Assembly: GCA_030430675.1 (NCBI GenBank)
Contig: JAUIKU010000001.1
Span: forward strand, 4,152-68,151
From: Bacteroidia bacterium
GTDB lineage: Bacteria; Bacteroidota; Bacteroidia; Cytophagales; Cyclobacteriaceae
Direction of reading: 5' to 3'
Length of the DNA stretch: 64,000 bases
The number at the start of each line of letters is the position of its first letter. The stretch's first letter is position 1. Shown here piece by piece: positions 8,134 to 25,411 of this stretch. The notes below the pieces were generated by a model, which ran no database searches, was not told where the DNA came from, and worked only from the letters and a program-made list of their open reading frames with translations. The position numbers were made by a program, and so were the translations under genes.

Positions 8134-8432
8134 AGGAAATAGCCCTGGGAGAGTTGGGGCTTACTGTTGATGAGTTCTACTTCAATTATACCTGGTCGCG
8201 GCTATGGAATCATTACCGGGGGTTCAAGAGAAAAACAGAGTTAAACCTGGTCTTGCAGCGGGCAATATTTGCTGGGTTAGCCGGGAAGCCAGGGAAGGAG
8301 ATTTGGCCTTTTAGTATCGATGAGGAGGAGAGTAACAAGTTTGAGTTAATGACTAACCAAGAAGTTGACGACCACTTTGAAAAACTAGCAAAAAAATTCG
8401 GGGCAAAGCTACCGAAGAAAGATAATGTCTGA
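8085..8432 (+). CDS. Tail assembly chaperone, -1 frame extension (T-like part of the G-T fusion; track lists 8154..8432)
   Basis: The -1 frame is open across the G stop codon. The arrangement matches the conserved G/GT strategy of long-tailed phages. Confidence 0.6.
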   Translation, partial: REGGEKPPSPRTWSQIEEIALGELGLTVDEFYFNYTWSRLWNHYRGFKRKTELNLVLQRAIFAGLAGKPGKEIWPFSIDEEESNKFELMTNQEVDDHFEKLAKKFGAKLPKKDNV

Positions 8433-10074
8433 TTTAGCGGCGGAAATAGGAGCGGATATTAGTGAGTTAAGGCGGGACATGCGCCAGGCACTCGGAATCA
8501 TTGAAAATTTTGAGAAGGACGCTACCCGGAACACTAATAATTTAGGAGATGTCTTTAAAGGTGTCTTTGCCGGCACTATTGTAGCTGATTTCGCTCAACA
8601 AGGAATACGGGCTATTCGTGAAATGGTGGTTGAGGGCGTACACCTTGCTGATGTAATGGCAGGGGTAGAACCAGCCTTTGAAAGGTTGGGGGACCCGTTG
8701 TTATTGAAAGATTTAGTTGACGCTACGGGTGGGGCGGTTACTAACCTGAACTTAATGAAGCAGGCTGTCCAGGCCAATAACCTGGGCTTGCCTATTCAGA
8801 CCCTTGCCAATCTATTTCAGGCAGCGTCTATCAGGGCGCGAGAAACGGGGGAATCCGTTGACTTCTTAACTAACTCCATAGTAACAGGTATCGGACGTAA
8901 AAGTCCGCTTATATTGGATAATTTGGGCATCTCGGCAGCCCAATTAAAAGAAGAACTTGGCGGGGTTTCTGTACAGGCAGCAAGCATTGGTGAGGTTGCC
9001 CAAGCTGTGGGAAATATTTTCCAAAAACAGATGGGGGATATGGGAGGCTCTGTTGCCGATGTGGTCAGTGAGGCCGATAAGCTAAAAACCGCTTTCACCA
9101 ATATTGCCACCGAAATAGGTGCAGCCCTACATCCGGCAATAACCACCGCCCAGAAACTGCTTGCAGATTGGCTTACAGAAGCAAAAGAAGCTATCCAGTT
9201 TGCCAGAACCGGGCTTTCTCCATTAAGTGGCACTGATGTACAGGAAATAGAGGAGCTAACACGGGCTTTCCAAAAAATGGGGGACGCGGCACGGGCCGAA
9301 GAATACGATCGCTTACAGGGGGCTTTGGCGTTAGCTGAAGAAGATGTTGAAAAATTCTCGGAAGCCTTAAAGCAGGCTGAATTTGAAAGAGCGAAGCGAG
9401 GTCTGGGAGGGTTTAGTACCGAGGTGGAGGCTGCGGAACAAAAACTAGATTCGGCACAAAAAGCGGTTTTAGCAATAAACACGCTGTTTGATAACTATGA
9501 AACCATACTCAACGGAGTTAAGTCCAGCACGGATAACCTTGCAGTTTCCACCGATACCCTAAAGGGGTCTTTTGATAAGTTATTTGAGCTTGAAACCTCT
9601 CCCTTTGGAGATTTTGCAGCACAGCTAAAGGCTATCCAAGATGCTCAGAATGAATTCAACCTATTGCAGGATATCTCAGGCTTGGCGGTTGGGCCTCCCC
9701 CTTCAGAAGCAGAAATAAACCGCTTTGTGGCAGAGAATGCCCCTGAAGAAGAAAAGATTACCGAATCTCTTATTAAACCCATCGAAGATGCCGAAAAGGT
9801 AGCCCTAAACTATCAATCTACCCTTTCAAGTCTATTCCAGACCATTTTTACCGAAGGCACCAAAGCGAAAGACATATTAGCTGAATTGGCCACAGGATTG
9901 ATTCCCGGTTTGCTGTCCAGCATCCCGATAGTTGGGCCTGCCCTCGGGGGGATATTTGGCGGTACGGCAAGAGGAATATTTTCTGAGCCCGGAAGTGTGA
10001 TATTATCCAATGGCGACATACGGGCTTCCATAGCATCTAATTCACGCACCAGGGACAATTTTGGAGGGTTCTAG
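8425..10074 (+). CDS. Tape measure protein
   Basis: At 549 aa it is Ala/Glu/Leu-rich and helical, with a Gly-rich hydrophobic segment near the C-terminus (…GLIPGLLSSIPIVGPALGGIFGG…). Its position is canonical. Confidence 0.8.
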   Translation: MSDLAAEIGADISELRRDMRQALGIIENFEKDATRNTNNLGDVFKGVFAGTIVADFAQQGIRAIREMVVEGVHLADVMAGVEPAFERLGDPLLLKDLVDATGGAVTNLNLMKQAVQANNLGLPIQTLANLFQAASIRARETGESVDFLTNSIVTGIGRKSPLILDNLGISAAQLKEELGGVSVQAASIGEVAQAVGNIFQKQMGDMGGSVADVVSEADKLKTAFTNIATEIGAALHPAITTAQKLLADWLTEAKEAIQFARTGLSPLSGTDVQEIEELTRAFQKMGDAARAEEYDRLQGALALAEEDVEKFSEALKQAEFERAKRGLGGFSTEVEAAEQKLDSAQKAVLAINTLFDNYETILNGVKSSTDNLAVSTDTLKGSFDKLFELETSPFGDFAAQLKAIQDAQNEFNLLQDISGLAVGPPPSEAEINRFVAENAPEEEKITESLIKPIEDAEKVALNYQSTLSSLFQTIFTEGTKAKDILAELATGLIPGLLSSIPIVGPALGGIFGGTARGIFSEPGSVILSNGDIRASIASNSRTRDNFGGF

Positions 10075-12598: not shown

Positions 12599-12970
12599 AT
12601 GCCATTTACTATTGACGATAAGGGTGCCGTTTCTTCGCTGGTTGACGGGGATTATATCCCGGTATGGGTGACCAGTTTAGGGCAGCAGAAGAAAATATCA
12701 AAAACCAACATGGCTAGCCAGCTGGGCGCGCTGGCTAAAACTCCGGTAGCTAATCAGGCGGTTTTAACCGCGCTTGAAATCAATGATCTTTCTAACGGAG
12801 AGATACGTGGGGTTGAGGATGTAAGGAAAGTTTATCAGTGGCAGGAAAACGCTACAACAGGAGACTTAGAGCCTGACGATAAAGGAAACCCGGGAGTTGA
12901 TCCGGGGTACTGGATTGATATTACAGGTGGCGGTTTTGATGGAAACGACGAAGCACCACTAGGAGGATGA
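12599..12970 (+). CDS. Tail fibre-like small protein (putative N-terminal anchor type)
   Basis: The N-terminus …VSSLVDGDYIPVWVTSLGQQKKISKTNMASQLG resembles fibre attachment N-termini. Confidence 0.4.
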   Translation: MPFTIDDKGAVSSLVDGDYIPVWVTSLGQQKKISKTNMASQLGALAKTPVANQAVLTALEINDLSNGEIRGVEDVRKVYQWQENATTGDLEPDDKGNPGVDPGYWIDITGGGFDGNDEAPLGG

Positions 12971-13704
12971 GAAAGCTCTGGAAAACCATATTAGCAAAAA
13001 AACAAGGTTCCTTTAACCCTATTATTCTGGGAGCAAACTTGCTTGCCCTGTGGGATGGAAACGACCCGTTATTGCCTGCTGATGATGCCGATGTTCTGAC
13101 TTGGACTTCTTTAGCTTCCGGTGGGCATGTAGCCACTTTCGGGACAGGAGATCGCGGGGTCATGAAAACCGATGGAAACGGGAACCGCTATTTGCAAACT
13201 GGTGGCGTTGCCAATGGGATTGTGGATTTAACTACAGGGCTAACAGAATCAGTAGGAGATTATTACACCATCTGTGTAGCGAAATATACCGGGGCTCTGG
13301 GTCCAACACCGGGACAGGGAAGAGCCTTTGATATTGGCGGTACCGGAAGGCACCTTTTGGGTTTGCCGGGAAACGTGGCTGATGAGGTTGGTTTCTTCGC
13401 AAATCCCGGGCCTGCTTTTGAATCAGGCGGAGCGTTAAACGGTGATTTACACATTTATGAATCTCGGTTAGAGTCTCCAAACTTCATTTGCTCTGTAGAT
13501 GGGGTCGAGGTAGTCAATGTAGCTACTTATTCCTCTCAGCAGATACTAGGGCCAGACGGAGGGACCATGGTACTATGCGATCAGGAAAACGGGGCGCAAG
13601 GAACACCGTTATTGGGTGATTTCTATTACCTGGGGATTGGAAAAGATTTAACAGCGCAGCAGAAAAGCGACTGGTACAGTATGGTTTCAGCAAGATACTT
13701 ATAA
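12967..13704 (+). CDS. Tail fibre-associated protein, possible lectin-like (ConA/LamG-type) fold
   Basis: The call rests on position and Gly-rich, beta-rich composition. It is weak. Confidence 0.4.
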   Translation: MRKLWKTILAKKQGSFNPIILGANLLALWDGNDPLLPADDADVLTWTSLASGGHVATFGTGDRGVMKTDGNGNRYLQTGGVANGIVDLTTGLTESVGDYYTICVAKYTGALGPTPGQGRAFDIGGTGRHLLGLPGNVADEVGFFANPGPAFESGGALNGDLHIYESRLESPNFICSVDGVEVVNVATYSSQQILGPDGGTMVLCDQENGAQGTPLLGDFYYLGIGKDLTAQQKSDWYSMVSARYL

Positions 13705-13706
13705 TT

Positions 13707-16103
13707 ATGGGAGTAACGCCATTACAAATACGAAGGGCCACGATGGCCGAGATAGATGCCGAGGCGGGGGCCGGGTATGTTGGAAGCCCTGTTTTATCAT
13801 CTGACGGGGGGTATTTGATTCTTCAGGATGGTTCTACACCAACTAACCAACTTGAAAAAATAGCCCCCACTGTTCAGGTCAATGTCAAACACTACGGGGT
13901 AAAAGAAGATTACACTGCCTTAGCCGATGTGTCCACTTCTGGAACGACCTTAACTAAAGTTGGGGGCGATGCTTTTACATCAGCAGACGTTGGAAAATCA
14001 ATAGGGTTTAATTGGGGTTTTGATCTGAATGCAAACGGCCATATGCCGGGAGGTGGTTCCAATCCAGGGCCATTTCCTACTCCTACCGTGGTAGCTGACA
14101 TTACTGCCCGTGATGCGTTAAGTCCTACTCACCAGGACATGGTAGAGGTTACGGATCCTTCAGCCGATGTAGGGGTAAACCTTCCGGCAGACTGGACCGG
14201 GAAAGCCTTTTATCTGAGGGTTTATACTACCTGGATGTGGGTAAACCACAAGGCCCGCCATTACACTACTATCGCAAGTATAACAAGTGATGACGTGGTA
14301 GAGTTAACCGATGCCCCGGATATAGACGTTTCAAATGTGACGGGATTCTACGCTACCGACAATTTCACAGCGGTAAGAACCTTGATAAATCAGTTTCCCG
14401 GTAAGAAGTTGCAGGTGTTCTTCCCTAAAGAGGCTTCAGGATATTATGTAGCCCCTCAGAGCGGGGTGTACTGGAACTTCACCAATGAGAATGTTGAATT
14501 ATTCTCTAATGGGGCTACTATCTACATTCAGAGCAGCCCTATTGCGGTATCTACTTTCATTTGGCCAGCAGGCAAAAGCAATATATCTATTAAGGGGCTA
14601 AAGTTTGTTTCCTGGATGGATGGGATTTCTCAGGATGCTACCTATGCCAATTTTAATAATGCCAACCTGGTAGTAATACGATTAGGCAACTCATCTGGAA
14701 GTGCGGGATCTGTCAATGAAAACTATGAACTTAAAGATTTAGAGTTTACCAATGTCGGCAACCCATTAACAGTAAAAGAGCAGAGTTCAACGGCCCTATA
14801 CTATACTAAGAATATCAATGTTGATGGGGTGAAAGTTGTGAACGGAGTAAATCCGATTTTCATTCAACAAGCCGATAAGGTTAGGTTTAACAATACCGAT
14901 GTAGACCATGAGATTACCGGAGACGGCCAGCACCACTTCTACATATCTCACGGGGTATCAAATATGAAGGTGGAGAATACCATTTGTCGTAGAGGTCAGG
15001 GGTATAACATCCAAATACAATCTGCACAGACGACTTTACCAATCAAAAGTATCTCATTCAAAAATATTCAGTTTGAGGATATGGTGTTTGGGTTCGTGTT
15101 CTCAGGGAACGTAAAAGGGGTTTCTATTCAGAACTTTATCGCTACGGTTGACACCTCTTTGGGTTCTGGTTCCGAGATAGTGATAAACGTCAATAGTGCG
15201 AACTCTGACAGGACTGTCGATGGAGTGGTAATAGATGGAGGTGAGATCTCAGGAGGCGGTTGGCTTTACACTGATTTTGACACAGGGGCCAATGGTTATA
15301 ATGAAAACGTTACCCTGAAAAACCTAAAAATATTTGGTAACACTTCAGGGATATTTCACCGGTATGCCAACCTTACTGTTGAAAACTGTGAATTTATCGC
15401 GGACAATACTGATAACGCGATCTTACAAGAGTACGGACTATCAGCAGATAAGCGAGTAGTATTCAGGAATAATACTTATCGCTTAACCGCAGGGGCGGGG
15501 AATGCTCAAGGGTTCCGGTTACTCAATGGTGCTGCTGGCGGTGTGTTTGTTCAGGGCAATACTTTGATTCAAACCGGCTCATGGGATTCCAATGCAAGGT
15601 TCTTTAACCTGGAATCGGGATACGGTTCGTGGGGGGCGATCAATGACAACACTATTGAGAACACCACACTTATCACTAATGACGGGTCATACGATGTAAC
15701 CAAGAACCTAAAACTGTACAACAACTTCCTGACAGACGGGGCAGAGCCACTAGCGAGTTACGGAGTGGTTAGAAGGCCATACGACTTAACCGGTACAGCA
15801 CAAACATTGAACCGAACTTTCCAACAGAGGTTTACGCGAACCACTAACGGTTCAGAAGTTACAATCACAATAAACGCCGATGGAAGTACTCCGCTAACAG
15901 ACATGGAGGCGCCTTTCCAAAAGTGCGGGGATGGTGATATAGTTTTTGCCTTCAACGGGGCAATTACCGTGGATGGGGTAGAGACAAGCCCCGGGTCGGG
16001 GGAATACCGCCAATCTATAAAGGGTGGAGTGGTATGGTTGAAAAGGACAGGCGCAAATACTTGGAGCATTTGGGGAGCATCATTAGGAGTTTCAGGAGGA
16101 TAG
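13707..16103 (+). CDS. Tailspike / depolymerase with right-handed parallel beta-helix repeats (putative)
   Basis: Repetitive N/G/I-V rungs are present (…NISIKGLKFVS…, …NMKVENTICRRGQGYNIQIQS…, …VTLKNLKIFGN…, …LTVENCEFIADN…). These are typical of pectate-lyase-fold spikes. Confidence 0.65.
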   Translation: MGVTPLQIRRATMAEIDAEAGAGYVGSPVLSSDGGYLILQDGSTPTNQLEKIAPTVQVNVKHYGVKEDYTALADVSTSGTTLTKVGGDAFTSADVGKSIGFNWGFDLNANGHMPGGGSNPGPFPTPTVVADITARDALSPTHQDMVEVTDPSADVGVNLPADWTGKAFYLRVYTTWMWVNHKARHYTTIASITSDDVVELTDAPDIDVSNVTGFYATDNFTAVRTLINQFPGKKLQVFFPKEASGYYVAPQSGVYWNFTNENVELFSNGATIYIQSSPIAVSTFIWPAGKSNISIKGLKFVSWMDGISQDATYANFNNANLVVIRLGNSSGSAGSVNENYELKDLEFTNVGNPLTVKEQSSTALYYTKNINVDGVKVVNGVNPIFIQQADKVRFNNTDVDHEITGDGQHHFYISHGVSNMKVENTICRRGQGYNIQIQSAQTTLPIKSISFKNIQFEDMVFGFVFSGNVKGVSIQNFIATVDTSLGSGSEIVINVNSANSDRTVDGVVIDGGEISGGGWLYTDFDTGANGYNENVTLKNLKIFGNTSGIFHRYANLTVENCEFIADNTDNAILQEYGLSADKRVVFRNNTYRLTAGAGNAQGFRLLNGAAGGVFVQGNTLIQTGSWDSNARFFNLESGYGSWGAINDNTIENTTLITNDGSYDVTKNLKLYNNFLTDGAEPLASYGVVRRPYDLTGTAQTLNRTFQQRFTRTTNGSEVTITINADGSTPLTDMEAPFQKCGDGDIVFAFNGAITVDGVETSPGSGEYRQSIKGGVVWLKRTGANTWSIWGASLGVSGG

Positions 16104-16106
16104 ATT

Positions 16107-17231
16107 ATGAAGAAGATACTAGTTGTAATACTAACACTATTTGCCCTGCAAGGGTGGGCGCAGACAGATGACTACCCGCAGGCGGTAGAGGATTTAATTT
16201 ATAATCCTATCCATCTTGATTCACTGGAAAAGGCCATAACACTTAACCTTTTCTTAGGGCACTTCGCAGATTCGGCAACATTGGCCGGGGCGTTCACCGC
16301 CTCTTCTTACGATGGCTATTGGGGCTTTACAGATGATGCGCCGTGGCGCATATTCATTTCAGATGGTTCTAACTGGAATGCTATTGCCGGCTCCGGTGGG
16401 GGAGGCGGTGGAATATCCGATGTTGTAGATGACACTACCCCTCAATTAGGGGGTAATTTGGACGCCCAAACTTTCACAATTTCCAATGCCGGAAACATAA
16501 CCATGGACGGAACATCAACCGTTGACGGCATAGATATTTCAGTAGATGTTGCAGCTAATACCGCCAAGGTTTCAGAAACAGTTATAACTACCGAGACAGA
16601 AACCGGGTCAACCAGGACTTTAGATGAAAACGATATTACCCACGTCAAAAGAGGGCTAACCATTAATGCGGCACCCACAGGAACCAAGCTGGATATCACT
16701 TTTGATCCTGGAACAGCTAATGACTGGTTTGAGATCATTCTTATTACTTCCGGGGATTCAGTAGAGTTTGAGGGCAACGGGGTAACCATTCACGGTGATA
16801 CCTTAATGACCTTTCAGTATCAATATGCACTTGCCCGCTACATCGATGCCACCAATGTAGTGCTGAAGATAGAGCAGCGGGAGCGGATAGAATTAATCTA
16901 TGCTATCAGTGATGAAAGCACAGCAATAACGGCAACTACGGGTTTAGTGCCAGACTTAATTACTCAGGCTTTCACTTTAACTGAAGTGGTAGCTTTTTGC
17001 TCAACTGGCCCAAGCGGGGGAGCTATTGTGTTTGATATTAACCTGGACGGGACCACAACATTGAGCACGAAGCTATCTATTGATTCGGGGGAACAAAGCT
17101 CAAGATCGGCAGCCACACCAGCGGTTATTTCGGATTCAGGTCTAGGGAACAATGAGGTCGTAAGTTTTGATGTGGAGAGCTCAAACGGATCTCCCGTAGG
17201 GGCAAAAATCCACCTAATAGGCTACAAATGA
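16107..17231 (+). CDS. Secreted fibre-like protein with Sec signal peptide and a poly-Gly / DDTTPQLGGNLD motif
   Basis: The N-terminus is MKKILVVILTLFALQGWAQ. The GGGGGGISDVVDDTTPQLGGNLDAQ motif is one I recall from phage fibre-type proteins. Confidence 0.55.
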   Translation: MKKILVVILTLFALQGWAQTDDYPQAVEDLIYNPIHLDSLEKAITLNLFLGHFADSATLAGAFTASSYDGYWGFTDDAPWRIFISDGSNWNAIAGSGGGGGGISDVVDDTTPQLGGNLDAQTFTISNAGNITMDGTSTVDGIDISVDVAANTAKVSETVITTETETGSTRTLDENDITHVKRGLTINAAPTGTKLDITFDPGTANDWFEIILITSGDSVEFEGNGVTIHGDTLMTFQYQYALARYIDATNVVLKIEQRERIELIYAISDESTAITATTGLVPDLITQAFTLTEVVAFCSTGPSGGAIVFDINLDGTTTLSTKLSIDSGEQSSRSAATPAVISDSGLGNNEVVSFDVESSNGSPVGAKIHLIGYK

Positions 17232-17995
17232 GAATACTAATCTTTCTTCTTTTCAGTATTCAGGTTTACGGGCAAAATCTTGTAAACCCGTATCGGTTTG
17301 CTACGGGTCCCGGAACCGATCCAGGCGCCCCGGATGCTCATTGGGATTTTGACAATGATCTTGATGATGATATAAATACCTATACGGAGGCAGACGGAAC
17401 CGCAGTTGGTACAATGTCTTATAGTTCAGGAGATAAAGTAGAGGGTACTCATTCGCTTGATCTGGATGGGTCTACTAATGCGGTTCTTATCAACAACTCA
17501 GGTGCCACCGATGACTTCATGCACCAAGCAAATGAGGACATTACTTTTTCGGGATGGATAAAGGTTGACACCGATGGCACAGATTACATCATCCTTGATG
17601 AGGGTGGTCAAGGCAAAGGGATGTATTTAGGGATCGGGGCAGCCGATGTGCTGGAGTTTGAAATTGACCCATCCTCCAGCACGGAATACACGGGGTCTGG
17701 GTCTTACCCCACCGATAATGGGTGGCATCATGTCGCGTTTGTTCTCGATGGTAGCGCCTCTACAGTAATTGTTTACCTGGACGGCTCATCTCTGTTTACG
17801 GTTAACATATCACCAGATACAGACTTTGAATCCCACAACGATAATGGGGGCTTTGGCCAGGTACATCAAAGCATAGCAGAGTTTGGAGTTAGTGACCAGG
17901 CCAGAAAATTCGATGGACATTTTGATGATTTCAAGTATTGGGAGAGCGCATTAACTGCGGACAATATTCTATGGCTATATCATGAGCATGATTAG
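17228..17995 (+). CDS. Secreted LamG/concanavalin-A-like lectin domain protein
   Basis: The signal peptide is MRILIFLLFSIQVYGQ. LamG-type motifs TFSGWIKV and GWHHVAFVLDG…VYLDG are present. Confidence 0.65.
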   Translation: MRILIFLLFSIQVYGQNLVNPYRFATGPGTDPGAPDAHWDFDNDLDDDINTYTEADGTAVGTMSYSSGDKVEGTHSLDLDGSTNAVLINNSGATDDFMHQANEDITFSGWIKVDTDGTDYIILDEGGQGKGMYLGIGAADVLEFEIDPSSSTEYTGSGSYPTDNGWHHVAFVLDGSASTVIVYLDGSSLFTVNISPDTDFESHNDNGGFGQVHQSIAEFGVSDQARKFDGHFDDFKYWESALTADNILWLYHEHD

Positions 17996-20900
17996 AATAC
18001 TAACCATATTAATACTATTCTCTTTGGGATGTGACGGACAATCCAGGGTAGGGTTTATTATCGCGGCAAAGAAAAGCCAGAACCCGGCACCCTATGTTGA
18101 GCCTGGTCAGGAATCCGGGATGTCATGGCCCGAATTAGTGGCTCCAACCAGCCCCGTAACTTTGAGTGCCTCAGATGAGGATACCGACAATGATGTATTG
18201 GGCGTTATAACCGACAATGAAAATACTTCCGAGTGGGTGCCTATAAACAGGTATTTGAGAGTAGCGAGTTACAAAGACTCAGTTTATGTATCCTATGTCG
18301 ATGATGCAAATCTAAGACCCAAGATTGGGGTAGTACATGTTGATGGAGGAAGCGTAACAACAGACTTTGTTGACAAGGATGAAACGGGTTGGAGTGTAAA
18401 TGACGATGACCATCATCATCCATCCTTTATAGTAGACGGAAACGGATATATTCACTATTGGGTAGACATGCACGTTTACCCACAGTCCAACGATTCACAC
18501 CTTCCCGCTGCCCGGTTAGATGAAGAAATAATGTGGTACATGAGCGACAACCCACAAGATATATCCTCATTTACTTTTATGGGCACACTGGATGCAGTAG
18601 AAGCCCCGCAAGGGTGGGGGTGGAGTTATTTGTATCCGTTCTTAACCCAAGACAGGGTATTGTTATTTAAAGCAAGGTCTGCTCCGTGGAGTACAAATGA
18701 CACTGAGAACACAGGTGACTATACCTTTCCGGGTGGCGCGGGACTATCTATGTACAAGTGGAACGGCTCAACATGGACAGGACTAGGGAACCCTCCCGAC
18801 GATCTTACCAATGGCGCTGGCACAAGGTATGGAACCTACCCTATGATATTTCAGGCTAACTACGGGGAGGAAAACCAGCCACCCGGAGAAAGTGACCCGC
18901 TCGACCAGTTTTACAATTCTATCTTTCATTACCCACGGGTAACATTTGATAACAAGATAGTAGCTATACAGGCCATCAATAAAGATTTTGAAATAGCCGA
19001 TGCCTCCACTATACTTTACGGGCACTCATGGGATTTAGGAGAGTCGTGGTTAAGCTGGAATGGTGACACCCTGACTACCCCAATAAGCTCCAATTCTATC
19101 CCCGGCATTCCTGCCCAAATGGATGGGGGAAACCATACGGGGGTAGACGGAAAAGGAAACCCTTATGTATCGTGGACAGCAGCATCCCCTTCAGGGACAT
19201 ATCAAAACACCAAATGGAAATATTACGATGGAAGTAGTTGGAGTGATTCGGCTGACTTTGAGCCGGAAAACGTATCGCGAAGTGCAGCATGGTATATTGA
19301 TGCCAATGAAGTTGTTTCCAGACTCGGCACAAACTTCTCAAGCGATATTTACAGATCATTAGGTGAGGATGCTACGGGGTATCAGGATGCTACATTAGGC
19401 ACACACTTCTTGCCGGGAGAACCCATCAGGGGGGCGGTGGATCACAATGCAATGTTTGGTGTAAGTTGGTCAGCTTCAACTTCTGGTGACCTACAAATAA
19501 GAAAGGTAAGGTGGGATCTAGCATCTATTCCTTCGATAGATTCTGAGTGGACTACAACTCAAATAGGTACATCTGCGGGAAGCACCGGAATATGGAACGG
19601 CATCTATCAAATGCAGTCAAGCGGTACTGGAATTTGGGGTGATGATATGGACTTGCAGTTTGTCCACAAAACAACTACAGGGGATTTTGATAGGGTGGTT
19701 CGGGTGAACGGCATTGAGTATGTGAGCGATTCAACTTTTACCGGATTAATGGTATCCGAGGAACTTGATGGAACCGGAGAATATATGGCGGTAACAATAT
19801 CCAACTATAATGGCTTGCGTGCAGACTCAAGAAATGAAAGCAATGTGAGAGACTCGGTTATAGTTCAAGATTATCCCGTTATTTGGTTGTGGCTAAAAAG
19901 AGAGGGTGACCAATTCACGGTTTACTATGGACACAACACTGTAACAGAGCCAACCTTATTGCTTCAGAAAGAGATCGCAATGGATGCAGTGGTGTATGTT
20001 GGTATAGTCACTGGATCCGGCCACTCATCTACCCAAACCCATGCCAGACTTTCCAGATATACAGAGATAGGGTACAGCCAGGAAGCTGCTCAGGCTATTG
20101 AGAACATAGGGTTGGAAGATGCTGAACCCTGGGAGGTGTCCGCTATTGCATGGGCGGTAGATTCATTGGTATTAGCCGGTCAATATGATGCGGCAGATTA
20201 TATCAACAGGTTGGGGGTAACGGTAACCCCGGCAAACTGGAAGGACGGGACCGACATTACAGAGGTTAATTCCCCTGAGTACTTGCAAGGCCAAGGGTAT
20301 AGATTGTTAGCAGATGATTCCACAGCCATAGACTTGAACTACCAGCCTTCAACAGATCGCAACGAGAACGTAACCTATATCTGGAAGGGCCGGCCAATAA
20401 ACAATTCATCCAACGATAACTATTTGTGGGGTGCAGATGACGGCACTGACAGGGCAGCGCTAAAGCTCAACACAGATGAAAATAATTGGGTATCATACAT
20501 TCATGCTAACGGTCTTTTGGGGCAGTACTTTTCAATTGATACCACTAACATTGTTTCAGTTACCAGGACTTACGATGATACCACAAGAATCTACAAAGAC
20601 GATACCGAACAATGGGAGAAAGTTGAAGCCTTTGACGGGCCGGTGGGTCAGGATATTCACATTGGAGCATTAGACAACAACGGTACTTTACAGCACTACT
20701 CAAGCCAGTTAGCTGAATGGTTTGTGGTTGGCGATTCTACCTTAGATTTATCGGTATGGCAGCGGGTAATGTATCGCACTGATTCGGTTTACTATGCTAA
20801 CTTAGGTAGTGCTTCCGATGAAACCGCACCAACAACCCCCGTAATAGCTTACAATTCCGGGTCAAGCACTTCACTTACTTTTGATATTACCACCCCCTCA

Positions 20901-21878
20901 ACTGATGCCAATGGGATTGCTCATTACCAGGTTGACCTAGACCAGACCTTTAACAAAAATATAGATGGTGGATCCACTCAGTTTACCGTTACCGGCCTGT
21001 CAGCTTCCACCGCTTACGATGTGAGGCTAAGTGCCTTTGACCCTTCGGGAAATCAATCTGCCACCTATGAGGTAACAAGTGTATCTACCGAGGCAGCAGG
21101 GGAAGAATTTACAGAGGACTTTGAAAGCGGTTTAGTTACCCCGCCTTTTGATACCAAGAATGGAGCCAACGACCCTACCTTTGGCGATGACCCTACCGAG
21201 GGCGGCAGTAATGATGTAATGATTTCCGACCTCCCGCCACCTACTACCTCATGGTCAAACATTGACCGCAGGAGCGAGATTAAGCGCACAGGGGGAACGT
21301 ATCAGGATGTGCCGGTATGGCACCCCAACGGCACCAGTTGGTCTTACCAGTTCAGGATATTTGTTCCCTCAGACCACTACTGCGACCCGGACTTTCCAGA
21401 GCTTATCGCACAGTGGCACCACAGCAATGTTAGCCCGGTCAGCGGTGGCCCGCCATTGATGATTAGAATTGAAGATTGCGAGATTAAAATAAAGTACCGC
21501 TATCAATCAACTGAAGGTGGTAGCGTGACAGAGAACACGGTAGCCTCCGGGCAAGACCTCACCTTGGATTCATGGAATTACTTTATCGTGGATGTTACCT
21601 GGGACTACTCCGGGTCGGGTTCGGTAGATGTGCATTGGGATGACGAAGGCTGGCCACTGGTGGGAGATGAGATTATAGATTACGATGGGGCTATTGGGTT
21701 TAATGACGGCGATGACCTGGGGGTAAACCAGGAGTTTGGAGTGTATAAATGGGACTTCAACAGCGCCACCGATGCCACCACATACAAAGATAACAGGGCG
21801 TCAAATTGCCCGGCCTGTGATGACAACAGGTTATTTTATTACGACGACATTACAATCCAGGAGGGGTTAGAGTTTTGA
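17982..21878 (+). CDS. 1298-aa putative lipoprotein: beta-propeller-like region + FN3-like module + C-terminal polysaccharide-lyase-like jelly roll
   Basis: A lipobox is present (…LILFSLGCDGQ). A His-rich block DDHHHPSFIVDGNGYIHYWVDMH is present. The FN3-like segment reads …TSLTFDITTPSTDANGIAHYQVDLDQ…YDVRLSAFDPSGNQS. The C-terminal segment reads RSEIKR…WSYQFRIFVP…IAQWHH…PPLMIRIE. Confidence 0.6.
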   Translation: MSMIRILTILILFSLGCDGQSRVGFIIAAKKSQNPAPYVEPGQESGMSWPELVAPTSPVTLSASDEDTDNDVLGVITDNENTSEWVPINRYLRVASYKDSVYVSYVDDANLRPKIGVVHVDGGSVTTDFVDKDETGWSVNDDDHHHPSFIVDGNGYIHYWVDMHVYPQSNDSHLPAARLDEEIMWYMSDNPQDISSFTFMGTLDAVEAPQGWGWSYLYPFLTQDRVLLFKARSAPWSTNDTENTGDYTFPGGAGLSMYKWNGSTWTGLGNPPDDLTNGAGTRYGTYPMIFQANYGEENQPPGESDPLDQFYNSIFHYPRVTFDNKIVAIQAINKDFEIADASTILYGHSWDLGESWLSWNGDTLTTPISSNSIPGIPAQMDGGNHTGVDGKGNPYVSWTAASPSGTYQNTKWKYYDGSSWSDSADFEPENVSRSAAWYIDANEVVSRLGTNFSSDIYRSLGEDATGYQDATLGTHFLPGEPIRGAVDHNAMFGVSWSASTSGDLQIRKVRWDLASIPSIDSEWTTTQIGTSAGSTGIWNGIYQMQSSGTGIWGDDMDLQFVHKTTTGDFDRVVRVNGIEYVSDSTFTGLMVSEELDGTGEYMAVTISNYNGLRADSRNESNVRDSVIVQDYPVIWLWLKREGDQFTVYYGHNTVTEPTLLLQKEIAMDAVVYVGIVTGSGHSSTQTHARLSRYTEIGYSQEAAQAIENIGLEDAEPWEVSAIAWAVDSLVLAGQYDAADYINRLGVTVTPANWKDGTDITEVNSPEYLQGQGYRLLADDSTAIDLNYQPSTDRNENVTYIWKGRPINNSSNDNYLWGADDGTDRAALKLNTDENNWVSYIHANGLLGQYFSIDTTNIVSVTRTYDDTTRIYKDDTEQWEKVEAFDGPVGQDIHIGALDNNGTLQHYSSQLAEWFVVGDSTLDLSVWQRVMYRTDSVYYANLGSASDETAPTTPVIAYNSGSSTSLTFDITTPSTDANGIAHYQVDLDQTFNKNIDGGSTQFTVTGLSASTAYDVRLSAFDPSGNQSATYEVTSVSTEAAGEEFTEDFESGLVTPPFDTKNGANDPTFGDDPTEGGSNDVMISDLPPPTTSWSNIDRRSEIKRTGGTYQDVPVWHPNGTSWSYQFRIFVPSDHYCDPDFPELIAQWHHSNVSPVSGGPPLMIRIEDCEIKIKYRYQSTEGGSVTENTVASGQDLTLDSWNYFIVDVTWDYSGSGSVDVHWDDEGWPLVGDEIIDYDGAIGFNDGDDLGVNQEFGVYKWDFNSATDATTYKDNRASNCPACDDNRLFYYDDITIQEGLEF

Positions 21879-22075
21879 CACAGAAAGAGCAAATACAGGA
21901 ACTTGATAAGAAGATTGGCCATATCGAAACCATACTTTTTGGGCATGACGGCAGCAACGGCATGAATGGCGATTTGAAAGAAATCAAGCGAAAGCAAACT
22001 GATATGATGATATGGGTCAGGGGTATAGCGTTGGCGGTTCCTTTTCTGCAATGGATTATTAATCATTTCCTATGA
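21875..22075 (+). CDS. Small membrane protein, holin candidate (66 aa, C-terminal TM)
   Basis: The TTG start overlaps the upstream stop. The hydrophobic C-terminus is IWVRGIALAVPFLQWIINHFL. It is the first gene of the lysis block. Confidence 0.4.
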   Translation: MTQKEQIQELDKKIGHIETILFGHDGSNGMNGDLKEIKRKQTDMMIWVRGIALAVPFLQWIINHFL

Positions 22076-22521
22076 AGCGGGCGAAGGTTAGCGGGGCATT
22101 ACTATTGATTACAGGGGTCTTATTGGGGGTTCTTATTACTTATCACCAATGCACCAGACCCTGGAAAGAAAAGTTCTATGAGTGGCAACAGAACACTTAT
22201 GGGGAGCCGGGTTATTATTCATGGTTGTGTAATCAGGTTGAAGCTGACCTAACCGATACATTCCATTATGATACCGTTTACTACTACGCTTTAGACAAGC
22301 CCAAATACCAGGAAGGGAAGATAATATTTGATGGTGACAATGTTACCTTTTCCCGGTCAGGGCAAGACTATTCTTACCATGCCGATCATAGCGGAGAAGG
22401 CTACTACTGGATATTAAAAGACGGCTACCCTACAGAGGTAATACAAAATGAGAACTCAGTAATAACCATGTCTTATGTGGCGGGTTACCCGCAATTGGAC
22501 ACTATAATCATTTATCACTGA
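22072..22521 (+). CDS. N-terminally membrane-anchored protein of the lysis block
   Basis: It has an ATGA overlap with the upstream gene and a TM segment GALLLITGVLLGVLITY. Confidence 0.4.
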   Translation: MKRAKVSGALLLITGVLLGVLITYHQCTRPWKEKFYEWQQNTYGEPGYYSWLCNQVEADLTDTFHYDTVYYYALDKPKYQEGKIIFDGDNVTFSRSGQDYSYHADHSGEGYYWILKDGYPTEVIQNENSVITMSYVAGYPQLDTIIIYH

Positions 22522-22886
22522 TGAGATTGGCCGACCATAAAACTAATGTTATCGGGGTTCACCCGGTTCTATTTTCTTACTGGTTTTTAGCAGATGAGGT
22601 TTGCCGAAAGATACTAGGCTATGAAATGATTATCACTCATTGCCTGGACGGGAAGCACATGGCGAAGTCATTGCATTATGTGGGGTTGGCATGGGATGTT
22701 AGGACGTGGACCACTCCAACAAGCGGCATTCAGATTGACCAGTATTTAAGAAGATTATTGGCTGAGACATTGCAAGAGGTTTTAGGGGATGCCTTTGATG
22801 TGGTAGAGCATGACACGCATTTACATATCGAACTGCAACCTAAGAATATTATAGAAGCAATAGAGGTGTTTAAACTATTATCATGA
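22521..22886 (+). CDS. Endolysin, LAS-type zinc peptidase (peptidase M15 family)
   Basis: The motifs are H-x6-D (SLHYVGLAWD) and H-x-H (HDTHLHIE). Size and position fit a phage lysin. Confidence 0.75.
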   Translation: MRLADHKTNVIGVHPVLFSYWFLADEVCRKILGYEMIITHCLDGKHMAKSLHYVGLAWDVRTWTTPTSGIQIDQYLRRLLAETLQEVLGDAFDVVEHDTHLHIELQPKNIIEAIEVFKLLS

Positions 22887-23686: not shown

Positions 23687-24571
23687 ATGGCGTTGTACAA
23701 GGGCCGTGAGCTTTGGCGCAATGTTCACGAGGTAGAGATACCCGATGTAAGGAAAAAGGATAACCCTTTAGACCTGTTTCTTTGCTCGGATGTCCACATG
23801 GAGAGTAAGAAGTGTGATCTTGATTTATTCATTAAGCACTTAGATGAAGCGAAGCGCAAGGGGGCATTGATAGCAATCATTGGTGACCTGTTCGATTTAA
23901 TGGAGGGACGGTATGACCCCCGAAGCAACAAGGGGGTATTGAATGAGGAGATAGTGAAACTCTCAGTAGACAATAGCATTCCTTATTTGAGCGCAGTGGT
24001 AGAGTGGGCGTTTAGAATACTTGAGCCGTACGCTGAGAACATCTGTTTGATAGGAAAGGGTAACCATGAAACCAATATCGAAAAGCGGGCAGAGTTCGAT
24101 TTAATAAATGCCCTGGTACACCGGCTGAACATGGTCAGTAATACACAGGTATTTCGTGGCGGTTATTCAGGATATTTAAAATTCAAGATGCCTAAAACCG
24201 GCACTCCATGGTTATCCTATCTGGTGAAGTACCACCACGGGTTTGGTGGAGCCAAGCGAAGCAAGGGAAGTTTAAACGTGGATCTCAACGCCGCTAATTG
24301 GCCAAGTGCCGATTTAGTTATTACCGGGCACACACACCACAAATGGATAATTCCAAAGCAACGTGAAATTCTCACGCAATACGGAAAGCTGACCAATACC
24401 GTGCAGTACCATATCTGTTTAGGAGGTTACAAAAATGACGTTGAGGATGGTTACGGTGGTTGGGCTGTGGAGCGTGGTTTTGAATCACTGGCATTAGGTG
24501 GCTGGTGGGGCAAACTATGGTTGTCCGGTCATGCGCAGAAGAATGTTTTACAGGAATGGGTTATGGCATGA
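23687..24571 (+). CDS. Calcineurin-like metallophosphoesterase
   Basis: The motifs occur in the canonical order: CSDVH, IGDLFD, GNHE, GHTHH. Confidence 0.8.
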   Translation: MALYKGRELWRNVHEVEIPDVRKKDNPLDLFLCSDVHMESKKCDLDLFIKHLDEAKRKGALIAIIGDLFDLMEGRYDPRSNKGVLNEEIVKLSVDNSIPYLSAVVEWAFRILEPYAENICLIGKGNHETNIEKRAEFDLINALVHRLNMVSNTQVFRGGYSGYLKFKMPKTGTPWLSYLVKYHHGFGGAKRSKGSLNVDLNAANWPSADLVITGHTHHKWIIPKQREILTQYGKLTNTVQYHICLGGYKNDVEDGYGGWAVERGFESLALGGWWGKLWLSGHAQKNVLQEWVMA

Positions 24572-25333: not shown

Positions 25334-25338
25334 TATAG

Positions 25339-25411
25339 TTGCCCGACCAGGGCTCGAACCTGGACTCTTCTGAACCAAAATCAGACGTGTTGCCAGTTAC
25401 ACCATCGGGCA
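25339..25411 (-). tRNA. tRNA-Gln (anticodon UUG)
   Basis: Hand-folded cloverleaf with a 7-bp acceptor stem including U1-A72. The D stem is GTGT/ACAC and the anticodon stem is TCTGA/TCAGA. The anticodon loop is TT-TTG-GT. The T arm is CCAGG-TTCGAGC-CCTGG. No CCA is encoded. Confidence 0.9.

What the first reader, a model, noticed from the sequence alone, without database searches (positions are those of the whole stretch)
16107..21878. Three consecutive signal-peptide/lipobox proteins with glycan-binding or glycan-degrading domains sit where virion fibre genes are expected
- The three genes between the beta-helix tailspike and the lysis cassette all begin with textbook export signals: MKKILVVILTLFALQGWAQ, MRILIFLLFSIQVYGQ and MSMIRILTILILFSLGCDGQ (a lipobox).
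- Virion structural proteins assemble in the cytoplasm and normally lack Sec or lipoprotein signals.
- One possibility is that the host cell exports these proteins as lysogenic-conversion cargo. That would give the lysogen a secreted lectin and a polysaccharide-lyase capacity, or remodel its own capsule or receptor.
- Alternatively the hydrophobic N-termini have a different role in the virion.
- Both alternatives are unusual and testable.
Basis: partly seen in the sequence, partly recalled or inferred. Interest (0 to 1): 0.62.

Follow-up and report, generated by a model that had tools for sequence, protein, structure and literature searches.

The report
Phage fibre and lyase genes with export signals
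A prophage in a Bacteroidota chromosome puts genuine host-style secretion signals on its last three tail-module proteins (a fibre-like protein, a sugar-binding protein and a double polysaccharide lyase), and because signal-bearing counterparts were found in purified particles of cultured marine phages, this looks like part of the phage's host-recognition kit made outside the cytoplasm rather than cargo for the lysogen.

Summary
ORFs 16107-17231, 17228-17995 and 17982-21878 start with textbook Sec signal peptides. They are the only ones among about 29 prophage genes, apart from one membrane anchor in the lysis cassette.

All three have a small residue followed by Gln at the predicted cleavage site (the Bacteroidetes Q-rule), as do four host proteins in the window. 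The host is Bacteroidota.

The signals are conserved in three other phage contigs (L001, L002, L097) with the same layout. There the protein bodies are swapped (LamG / CBM6-35 / arabinofuranosidase-type; PL25-like / pectate-lyase) but the signal-bearing N-termini are kept.

P1 folds like a phage tail fibre with a C1q-like knob. The genes are translationally coupled to the tail operon. They show no promoter, terminator or GC anomaly and no T9SS domain.

In Cellulophaga phages phi10:1, phi39:1 and phiSM, nine analogous proteins carry Q-rule signals. GenBank marks seven of them as virion proteins by MS/MS.

The lysogenic-conversion reading is therefore poorly supported. The best reading is a set of Sec-exported, late-expressed glycan-recognition and depolymerase proteins, probably virion-associated. 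How exported proteins would join a particle assembled in the cytoplasm is unexplained, and I found no paper describing it.

The parts
13707..16103 (+). 798-aa spike-like tail protein WITHOUT a signal peptide. Its N-terminal ~50 aa anchor module is conserved with the L001 998-aa protein, and the body is swapped.
Evidence: 45% identity over residues 1-50 only. No Pfam or PDB sequence hit.
16107..17231 (+). P1: a fibre-like protein. Signal peptide residues 1-18 (cleavage A18|Q19); conserved N-domain 20-95; Gly-rich/TPQLGG linker 96-156; two beta-sandwich domains 160-257 and 260-373 (C1q/jelly-roll-type knob).
   Evidence: signal conserved in P0002 and P0003; AF2, C-terminal pLDDT >90; Foldseek hits to phage tail fibres and spikes; knob in the S-CRM01 tail fiber; knob domain in 10,828 cluster representatives.
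17228..17995 (+). P2: a lectin-type protein. Signal peptide residues 1-15 (G15|Q16); conserved post-cleavage motif NLVNPYRF; LamG_3 (concanavalin-like) domain 99-247.
   Evidence: PF13385, E 6e-19. (only the first 26 aa are shared with the L001 CBM6/35 protein). (motif shared with L097, L002, L095 and phiSM gp08).
17982..21878 (+). P3: a 1298-aa multidomain polysaccharide lyase. Signal peptide residues 1-19 (G19|Q20), or a lipoprotein cleaved at G16|C17. Domains: BNR_4 (PL25 ulvan-lyase-type propeller) ~102-422; unassigned middle ~520-940; fn3 955-1027; PF14099 lyase 1090-1271.
   Evidence: (the signal and the C-terminal fn3+lyase are shared with the L001 1271-aa protein; the middle is replaced there by He_PIG plus a PelZ-like pectate lyase).
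21875..22886 (+). Start of the lysis cassette immediately downstream: a 66-aa protein with a C-terminal TM (holin-like; a counterpart follows the lyase in L001), a 149-aa N-anchored protein, and an M15-type peptidase.
   Evidence: The peptidase motifs were read from the sequence; there was no Pfam hit at E<0.1.
25338..25411 (-). tRNA-Gln(UUG) at the right-hand prophage/host junction.
   Evidence: Host purL starts at 25486 on the minus strand.

Best explanation
The three genes are the distal, exported part of the phage's host-glycan recognition and degradation module. They are not lysogen cargo.

**Proposed sequence of events**
1. They are transcribed late, together with the tail genes. This is inferred from translational coupling and from the absence of separate signals.
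2. They are made as pre-proteins with Sec signal peptides. This is shown by the sequence and by conservation.
3. They are translocated and cut by signal peptidase I in front of Gln: A18|Q19, G15|Q16 and G19|Q20. P3 may instead be lipidated at C17.
4. The new N-terminal Gln is presumably cyclised to pyroglutamate by the host glutaminyl cyclase. This is inferred from the Bacteroidetes Q-rule.
5. Outside the cytoplasm they fold into three proteins:
   - a fibre with a C1q-like knob (P1);
   - a LamG lectin (P2);
   - an enzyme with two lyase-type domains, PL25-like and PF14099 (P3), aimed at a uronic-acid-containing capsule or exopolysaccharide.
6. By analogy with Cellulophaga phages, whose signal-bearing counterparts are found in purified virions, they most likely end up on the particle. 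They would join it when the compartments merge at lysis. There they would serve adsorption and capsule penetration, and perhaps also free progeny from the matrix of the lysed cell.

Steps 3 to 6 are inferred, not shown.
For: - **Real signals.** The n/h/c regions are present and the signals are unique to these genes within the prophage.
- **Q-rule.** Gln follows a small residue at +1 in 20 of the 21 signal-bearing proteins examined. These come from the window, L001, L002, L097, L095, phi10:1, phi39:1 and phiSM. The one exception is the L095 287-aa protein. The same pattern is seen in 4 host proteins of the window.
- **Host.** The host is Bacteroidota (purL). The Q-rule is specific to that phylum (PMC5837995, PMC10653852).
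- **Signals under selection.** The signal is retained at 42-43% overall identity in P0002 and P0003. It is retained in P2 and P3 counterparts whose bodies were exchanged.
- **Tail-module membership.**
  - The genes are tightly coupled to the spike gene.
  - The order spike - fibre - CBM/lectin - lyase - holin-like is the same in L001. The order TMP - large protein - three signal proteins - lysis - metallophosphoesterase is found in L097.
  - P1 has a tail-fibre fold.
  - Conserved N-termini with swapped bodies is the pattern typical of receptor-binding proteins.
- **No moron signature**.
- **Virion association of analogues.** GenBank notes 'experimental MS/MS proteomics' for phi10:1 gp091-094, phi39:1 gp25-26 and phiSM gp08. 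All of them carry Q-rule signals.
Against: - There are no expression, localisation or proteomic data for this prophage. No RNA run holds it.
- Similarity to the Cellulophaga proteins is at the level of architecture and fold only. BLAST between P1 and gp094 finds nothing, and P2 and P3 have no tblastn hit in cultured phages.
- MS/MS detection in virion preparations could reflect co-purifying envelope material or lectin-like sticking.
- No mechanism is known by which periplasmic proteins join a tailed particle that is assembled in the cytoplasm.
- The feature is not general in Bacteroidota phages: the B40-8 fibres have no signal.
- The signal prediction is heuristic.
Confidence: 0.55

Rival explanations
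1. These are exported helper proteins that never become part of the virion. They are made late, sent to the periplasm or envelope, and degrade or bind the cell's own capsule or exopolysaccharide. This lets progeny escape and stops them re-adsorbing to debris (a receptor-destroying role), or it masks the receptor against superinfection.
For: - The signals are genuine and there is no T9SS domain, so the end point would be the periplasm or inner envelope.
- The genes lie directly upstream of the lysis cassette.
- P3 has bacterial-type, probably monomeric CAZyme domains (BNR_4/PL25-like, fn3, PF14099) and not a trimeric beta-helix spike.
- The phage already has a signal-less spike for the virion.
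- phi10:1 gp095 and phiSM gp09, both signal-bearing pectate lyases, were NOT flagged as MS-detected.
Against: - Seven of nine analogous signal proteins in Cellulophaga phages were MS-detected in virions, including the phi39:1 lyase gp26.
- P1 has a tail-fibre fold.
- The short post-signal motif is conserved on swapped bodies. That suggests docking to a constant partner more than free enzymes.
Confidence: 0.25
2. This is the first reader's reading: lysogenic-conversion cargo, comparable to lambda lom/bor or secreted prophage CAZymes. The proteins would be expressed in the lysogen and give it a secreted lectin and lyase, for nutrition or for surface remodelling.
For: - The element is an integrated prophage at about the same depth as the host.
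- Prophage CAZymes with signal peptides are documented (about 5% of prophage CAZymes; PMC13507307).
- P. gingivalis prophages carry Q-rule signal-peptide genes that were proposed to modify the host surface (PMC10367356).
- BNR_4 and PF14099 domains are typical of bacterial polysaccharide-utilisation enzymes.
Against: - The genes are translationally coupled within the late tail operon, with no own promoter or terminator and no compositional anomaly.
- The block has a conserved position in four phages, with bodies exchanged in the way receptor-binding proteins are.
- P1 is a fibre, not a metabolic enzyme.
- The same set occurs in Cellulophaga phages described as lytic, and phi10:1 has no annotated integrase.
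Confidence: 0.1
3. The hydrophobic N-termini are not cleaved export signals. They would be structural elements (membrane or virion anchors, or trimerisation helices) of ordinary fibres assembled in the cytoplasm.
For: Virion detection of the analogues is most simply compatible with assembly in the cytoplasm. AF2 models residues 2-15 of P1 as a helix.
Against: - Gln sits at +1 after a small-x-small site in 20 of 21 proteins. That matches the processing rule of the host phylum and has no rationale for a structural helix (PMC5837995).
- The N-termini look exactly like those of host secreted proteins in the same window.
- The signal-less spike and the 245-aa protein of the same module use a different, hydrophilic conserved N-terminus as their anchor.
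Confidence: 0.07

Closest known systems
Tail-end 'structural proteins' and pectate lyases of Cellulophaga phages: phi10:1 gp091-gp095 (KC821618), phi39:1 gp25-gp26 (KC821626), phiSM gp08-gp09 (KC821616)
   Same: - Consecutive genes at the end of the tail module, just before the membrane proteins and endolysin.
- Each starts with a Bacteroidota Q-rule signal peptide.
- The content is fibre-like, CBM-like and polysaccharide-lyase proteins.
- Foldseek links P1 to phi10:1 gp094 (R9ZYK6, E 4e-7) and to the phi12:1 tail fibre.
- The major capsid proteins of the window phage and phi10:1 are homologous (27% identity, E 2e-16).
   Different: - There is no BLAST-level similarity between the three window proteins and the Cellulophaga proteins.
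- In phi10:1 the large (777-aa) spike-position protein gp093 also carries a signal, whereas the window's spike does not.
- The lyase types differ: PL25-like plus PF14099 here, PL1-type pectate lyase there.
- The window phage is integrated, whereas the Cellulophaga phages were described as lytic.
- Virion presence is measured there and only inferred here.
Q-rule signal-peptide genes of unknown function in Porphyromonas gingivalis prophages ('Nixviridae'; Matrishin et al. 2023, PMC10367356)
   Same: These are Bacteroidota prophage genes whose predicted signal-peptidase-I cleavage exposes Gln, which was read as adaptation to the host's Sec pathway.
   Different: Those genes have no assigned function and were proposed to modify the host outer membrane. 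No link to fibre, lectin or lyase domains or to the tail module was reported in the passages read.
Lambda-type morons with export signals (lom, bor) and secreted prophage CAZymes (PMC13507307)
   Same: These are prophage-encoded proteins with Sec or lipoprotein signals lying near the tail and lysis genes. They include carbohydrate-active enzymes.
   Different: Morons have their own promoter and terminator and are expressed in the lysogen (established knowledge, not tested here for lambda). The window genes are coupled into the late operon and show the modular exchange seen in receptor-binding proteins.
Classical virion-associated depolymerases and tail fibres (e.g. CBA120 TSP4, T4 gp9, phage 7-7-1 fibres, S-CRM01 tail fiber)
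   Same: P1 shares the fold and the C-terminal knob domain with these proteins. The position in the genome and the pattern of conserved N-terminus with variable C-terminus also match.
   Different: These proteins have no signal peptide and assemble in the cytoplasm. About 90% of proteins that carry the P1 knob domain also lack a signal.

Membership tests
Sec / signal peptidase I substrates obeying the Bacteroidetes Q-rule | N-terminal basic n-region, an uncharged hydrophobic h-region of 8-15 residues, and small residues at -3 and -1 | tested here: met
   heuristic. P1 has KK + ILVVILTLFAL + GWA. P2 has R + ILIFLLFSI + VYG. P3 has R + ILTILILFSLG + CDG.
Sec / signal peptidase I substrates obeying the Bacteroidetes Q-rule | Gln at +1 of the cleavage site | tested here: met
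   A18|Q19, G15|Q16 and G19|Q20. The same holds in the homologues and analogues and in 4 host proteins of the window.
Sec / signal peptidase I substrates obeying the Bacteroidetes Q-rule | The organism belongs to Bacteroidota | tested here: met
   The best purL matches (61-64% identity) are mostly Bacteroidota, chiefly Cytophagales such as Roseivirgaceae, Fulvivirga and Cyclobacteriaceae.
Sec / signal peptidase I substrates obeying the Bacteroidetes Q-rule | Actual translocation, cleavage and pyroglutamate formation | not testable with these tools
   This needs reporter fusions or N-terminal proteomics.
Bacterial lipoproteins (signal peptidase II) - P3 only | Lipobox [LVI][ASTVI][GAS]C at the end of the h-region | tested here: inconclusive
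   P3 has S-L-G-C17 and the L001 counterpart has A-I-S-C, so the Cys is conserved. Both also have a small|Q site 3-5 residues later. Host lipoproteins in the window also have loose lipoboxes (CFGC, VPSC).
Moron / lysogenic-conversion gene | Autonomous transcription unit (own promoter and terminator), with composition often differing from the neighbours | tested here: not met
   Start and stop codons overlap or lie 3 nt apart. Promoter-like sites are no more frequent than in shuffles, and no Bacteroidota -33/-7 match or strong terminator flanks the block. GC is 0.46-0.48, like the rest of the prophage.
Moron / lysogenic-conversion gene | Expressed in the uninduced lysogen | not testable with these tools
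   No RNA run holds the stretch.
Virion-associated tail fibre / depolymerase module | Encoded in the late tail operon, downstream of the tape measure and baseplate genes | tested here: met
   The order is portal ... MCP ... TMP (8425-10074) ... spike ... P1-P3 ... lysis.
Virion-associated tail fibre / depolymerase module | Fibre or spike fold, and modular exchange with a conserved N-terminus | tested here: met
   Foldseek on P1. Window versus L001 comparisons.
Virion-associated tail fibre / depolymerase module | Physical presence in the virion | not testable with these tools
   Only analogues have data: GenBank MS/MS notes for phi10:1 gp091-094, phi39:1 gp25-26 and phiSM gp08.
Type IX secretion cargo | C-terminal sorting domain (TIGR04183 / TIGR04131 type) | tested here: not met
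   The NCBIfam scan at E<=1 finds no CTD in P1, P2, P3 or the L001 counterparts.
Polysaccharide lyases (PL25-type BNR_4; PF14099 PL13/PL20-type) | Domain match above Pfam's gathering score | tested here: met
   BNR_4 scores 29.6 bits against 27.3 when the N-terminal segment is scanned alone, covering profile positions 3-266 of 272. PF14099 scores 64.5 bits against 29.9. BNR_4 is the domain of PL25 ulvan lyases (PMC13193363).
Polysaccharide lyases (PL25-type BNR_4; PF14099 PL13/PL20-type) | Catalytic residues and activity | not tested
   No alignment to characterised enzymes was made. The single-sequence AF2 model of the N-terminal part failed (pLDDT 32).

The most novel reading that the evidence does not exclude
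A sizeable group of tailed phages, at least in Bacteroidota, completes its host-recognition apparatus outside the cytoplasm. Fibre, lectin and depolymerase subunits would be Sec-exported, trimmed by signal peptidase I and capped with pyroglutamate. They would join the otherwise finished particle only in the periplasm or at lysis, perhaps through short conserved post-signal docking peptides such as NPYRF. That would be an assembly route not described for Caudoviricetes.
Probability: 0.35. Interest if true: 0.85.

Novelty: new variant of a known kind. Interest (0 to 1): 0.64.

Why it matters
- **Assembly.** Textbook tailed-phage assembly is entirely cytoplasmic. If fibre and depolymerase subunits with cleaved Sec signals really are on the particles, there is an unrecognised extracytoplasmic maturation or attachment step. 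Possible reasons for it include disulfide formation, pyroglutamate protection, host glycosylation, or keeping lyases away from cytoplasmic precursors.
- **Annotation.** Such genes are currently split between 'structural protein', 'AMG/CAZyme' and 'moron'. The public gene call even truncates the signal of P3.
- **Applied work.** It affects how depolymerases from Bacteroidota phages should be expressed recombinantly, namely as mature forms without the signal.
- **Testability.** Cultured Cellulophaga phages give a direct test system.

Tried and rejected
- **Bacteroidota O-glycosylation motif D-[ST]-[AILVMT].** It is not significantly enriched in P1 (5 against 2.9 expected), P2 (0 against 1.8) or P3 (11 against 7.8). 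There is no support here for a 'sent out to be glycosylated' reading.
- **T9SS C-terminal domain.** None was found.
- **Promoter and terminator scans, including a Bacteroidota -33/-7 pattern.** Nothing flanks the block. This is weak negative evidence, because the promoter models are crude.
- **Searches for more P1-family loci.**
  - The viral-contig scan gave one distant jumbo-phage fibre repeat.
  - The genome-contig scan gave none.
  - The metagenome-contig scan gave only TPQLGG-motif hits.
  - A full HMM search of 1.84 billion representatives gave only the three known full-length members.
- **Homologue searches for P2 and P3.** P2 found only itself. P3 gave only fn3 and lyase domain-level hits. 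Neither has a hit in cultured phages.
- **PDB sequence searches.** Nothing useful was found for P1, P3 or the spike.
- **AF2 of the P3 N-terminal 510 aa without an alignment.** The model was unusable (pLDDT 32), so no fold search was run on it.
- **RNA evidence.** No RNA run holds the stretch. DNA runs (biofloc metagenomes) show only that the prophage and host flank have similar low depth.
- **Direct homology of tail genes to phi10:1.** BLAST finds none for the 684-aa protein, the 156-aa protein, the spike or P1. Only the MCP is homologous.
- **Generality check.** Bacteroides phage B40-8 fibres lack signals, so the feature is lineage-restricted.
- **Holmfeldt et al. 2013 (PNAS).** The paper could not be read. 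The virion claim therefore rests on the GenBank notes.

Full report
**1. Observation**

The window from 1 to about 25200 is the late region of a siphovirus-type prophage. In order it holds the portal, a head-morphogenesis protein, the prohead protease, an HK97-type capsid protein, adaptors, the tape measure (8425-10074) and further tail proteins. It ends beside tRNA-Gln (25338-25411) and host purL.

- P1, 16107-17231;
- P2, 17228-17995;
- P3, 17982-21878.

They follow a 798-aa spike-like protein that has no signal, and they precede the lysis cassette. The gaps are 3 nt, an ATGA overlap and a 14-nt overlap.

A simple signal-peptide scan of every ORF flags only these three, plus one membrane anchor of the lysis cassette, among about 29 prophage genes.

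The public gene call for P3 starts at a downstream TTG and loses the signal. The counterpart in locus L001 keeps a homologous signal, so the ATG start is the better one.

**2. Are the signals real?**

The host is Bacteroidota. Its purL is 61-64% identical to that of Roseivirgaceae, Fulvivirga, Cyclobacteriaceae and relatives.

In this phylum most signal-peptidase-I substrates expose Gln at +1, which is then cyclised to pyroglutamate. This is the 'Q-rule' (PMC5837995, PMC10653852).

All three proteins have a small residue followed by Gln at the expected distance from the hydrophobic core: GWA|Q, VYG|Q and CDG|Q. Four host secreted proteins in the same window do the same: LRA|QQ, ALA|QS, LYS|QI and GFS|QT.

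The two full-length homologues of P1 are 42-43% identical to it and keep the signal and the A|Q site. I conclude that these are genuine, selected Sec signals.

For P3 a lipoprotein reading (S-L-G-C17; the Cys is conserved in L001) cannot be separated from a signal-peptidase-I reading.

No type IX secretion domain is present.

**3. What the proteins are**

*P1.* The AF2 model, built with a 40-sequence alignment, shows:
- the signal helix;
- a poorly modelled Gly-rich/TPQLGG stretch;
- two beta-sandwich domains, the last with pLDDT above 90.

Foldseek finds phage tail fibre and spike modules: CBA120 TSP4, T4 gp9 and phage 7-7-1 fibres. It also finds C1q-type knobs. Among predicted viral structures it finds tail fibres, including Cellulophaga phage proteins.

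The C-terminal knob occurs in the annotated tail fibre of cyanophage S-CRM01 and in a virion structural protein of a Rhodobacteraceae phage. It occurs in 10,828 cluster representatives overall, and only three of those have the full P1 architecture.

About one in twelve of the best knob-domain hits has a signal-like N-terminus. Most of those have a Q-rule site.

*P2.* This is a LamG_3 (concanavalin-like) protein.

*P3.* It combines:
- a BNR_4 domain, which passes the Pfam threshold when scanned alone and is the domain of PL25 ulvan lyases (PMC13193363);
- an unassigned middle region;
- an fn3 domain;
- a PF14099 polysaccharide-lyase domain.

**4. Related loci**

*L001.* This 10.4-kb metagenome contig has the same order:
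- a 236-aa protein;
- a 998-aa spike;
- a P1 homologue;
- a 203-aa CBM6/35-like protein with a signal (CYA|Q);
- a 1271-aa protein with a signal (SFS|Q) that carries He_PIG, a PelZ-like pectate lyase, fn3 and PF14099;
- a holin-like protein.

*L002.* It shows the P1 homologue followed by another signal protein (LDA|Q).

*L097.* It shows the tape measure, a 925-aa protein, and then three consecutive Q-rule signal proteins. These are a 655-aa fibre with the P1 knob, a 328-aa arabinofuranosidase-type protein and a 203-aa protein. Lysis genes follow, and then a metallophosphoesterase like the one in the window.

*Window compared with L001:*
- the spikes share only their first ~50 residues;
- the P2 pair shares only the signal plus the next ~10 residues (NPYRF / NPFRY);
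- the P3 pair shares the signal and the C-terminal fn3+lyase.

A similar short motif follows the signal in the second gene of L097 and L002, in an L095 protein and in phiSM gp08.

A conserved N-terminus with an exchanged body is how receptor-binding proteins of phages evolve. Here the signal-bearing N-terminus plays the part of the conserved module.

**5. Cargo or phage apparatus?**

Nothing marks the block as an autonomous moron:
- there is no promoter-like or terminator-like signal around it, and promoter-like sites are no more frequent than in shuffled sequence;
- there is no Bacteroidota-type promoter match;
- GC content is like that of the neighbours;
- the genes are translationally coupled.

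Prophage and host flank have the same low depth in the biofloc metagenomes that hold them. No RNA data exist.

The decisive comparison came from following a lead in earlier notes of this scan, which I checked myself against GenBank records:

| Phage | Signal-bearing proteins (predicted cleavage) | Flagged 'experimental MS/MS proteomics' (virion) |
|---|---|---|
| phi10:1 | gp091 (LSA\|Q), gp092 (SFG\|Q), gp093 (VSA\|Q), gp094 (LNA\|Q), gp095 pectate lyase (CFS\|Q) | gp091-gp094 |
| phi39:1 | gp25 (MAA\|Q), gp26 pectate lyase (SYG\|Q) | both |
| phiSM | gp08 (VLS\|Q), gp09 pectate lyase (AVA\|Q) | gp08 |

In phi10:1 the five genes lie between a tail protein and the membrane-protein/lysozyme block.

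The MS flags in these records are selective. They fall on the portal, capsid, connector, tape-measure-region and these proteins, and not on replication genes.

The phi10:1 record lists no integrase. These phages were published as lytic (title cited). The phi10:1 capsid protein is homologous to the window's, but the tail proteins are not detectably similar.

Bacteroides phage B40-8 fibres have no signal, so the trait is restricted to some lineages.

**6. Interpretation**

The best-supported reading (confidence about 0.55) is that P1-P3 are the exported, late-expressed part of the phage's glycan-recognition and depolymerase module. They would be processed by the host Sec/SPI/glutaminyl-cyclase route and probably end up on virions.

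Rivals:
- exported helpers that act on the producing cell's capsule or matrix without joining the particle (0.25);
- lysogenic conversion cargo (0.10);
- uncleaved hydrophobic anchors (0.07).

The step that no evidence explains is how periplasmic proteins would meet particles assembled in the cytoplasm. Attachment after holin and endolysin action is the simplest guess.

An O-glycosylation rationale finds no support here.

**7. Novelty**

Three things are already in the literature:
- the Q-rule;
- Q-rule signal genes of unknown function in P. gingivalis prophages (PMC10367356);
- a minority of prophage CAZymes carrying signals (PMC13507307).

I found no paper that notes Sec signals on virion-detected fibre or lyase proteins of tailed phages. 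The flavophage paper I read (PMC8776804) does not contain the term 'signal peptide' at all.

Earlier notes of this scan report the same pattern in other windows. This window is therefore one more instance of a recurrent, apparently undescribed variant of the phage tail-fibre/depolymerase module.

Noticed in passing
window 17982-18026: The public gene call for the 1298-aa protein (P0112, 1284 aa) starts at TTG 18024 and so drops the signal peptide. Automated annotation would therefore miss that this protein is exported.
   Followed up: yes
window 17273-17300 (P2 residues 16-25); L001 5163-5195; L097 ~10025-10060: A short motif directly after the predicted cleavage site (Q-x3-[ND][PS][YF]-x-[RK][FY], e.g. 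QNLVNPYRF) recurs in the second signal-bearing gene of several phages. The domains behind it differ (LamG, CBM6/35, arabinofuranosidase-type). It may be a docking peptide.
   Followed up: partly
window 23687-24571; L097 12103-12954: A calcineurin-like metallophosphoesterase follows the lysis genes both in the window prophage and in the unrelated-looking contig L097. It therefore seems to be a conserved accessory of this phage group and not a random moron.
   Followed up: no
L095 1967-3749: A 310-aa protein with a Q-rule signal peptide and the P1-type knob sits upstream of the tail terminator and tube genes of another phage contig, that is, on the head-module side. The next gene begins MYRFSLALLSLCLIASGGPLVNPF. 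Signal-bearing knob proteins are thus not confined to the tail end.
   Followed up: no
L094 (Bacteroides phage B40-8) 17380-17796: B40-8 ORF013 begins MKEEVKLFRVLIIVFVLLVFTFVLTSCGDDSDN. This is a lipobox followed by an acidic run that resembles the Bacteroidota lipoprotein surface-export signal. The B40-8 tail fibres themselves have no signal.
   Followed up: no
window 16107-17231 (C-terminal 110 aa): The P1 knob domain is a very large, apparently unnamed family. It has 10,828 cluster representatives at E<=0.001, is often combined with TPQLGG repeats, Mtd_N, DUF2793 or collagen-like repeats, and has no Pfam model hit.
   Followed up: partly
window 12967-13704 and L001 249-959: The 245-aa protein upstream of the spike, and its L001 counterpart, appear by eye to share a short N-terminal stretch (ILAKKQGSF versus ILSAKQGGLPG) and to differ afterwards. 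This would be the same conserved-N-terminus, swapped-body pattern as the spike. No alignment was run on this pair.
   Followed up: no
window 13707-16103: The signal-less 798-aa spike contains none of the D-[ST]-[AILVMT] O-glycosylation motifs, against about 3 expected from its composition. This is borderline, is not significant on its own, and was not pursued.
   Followed up: no
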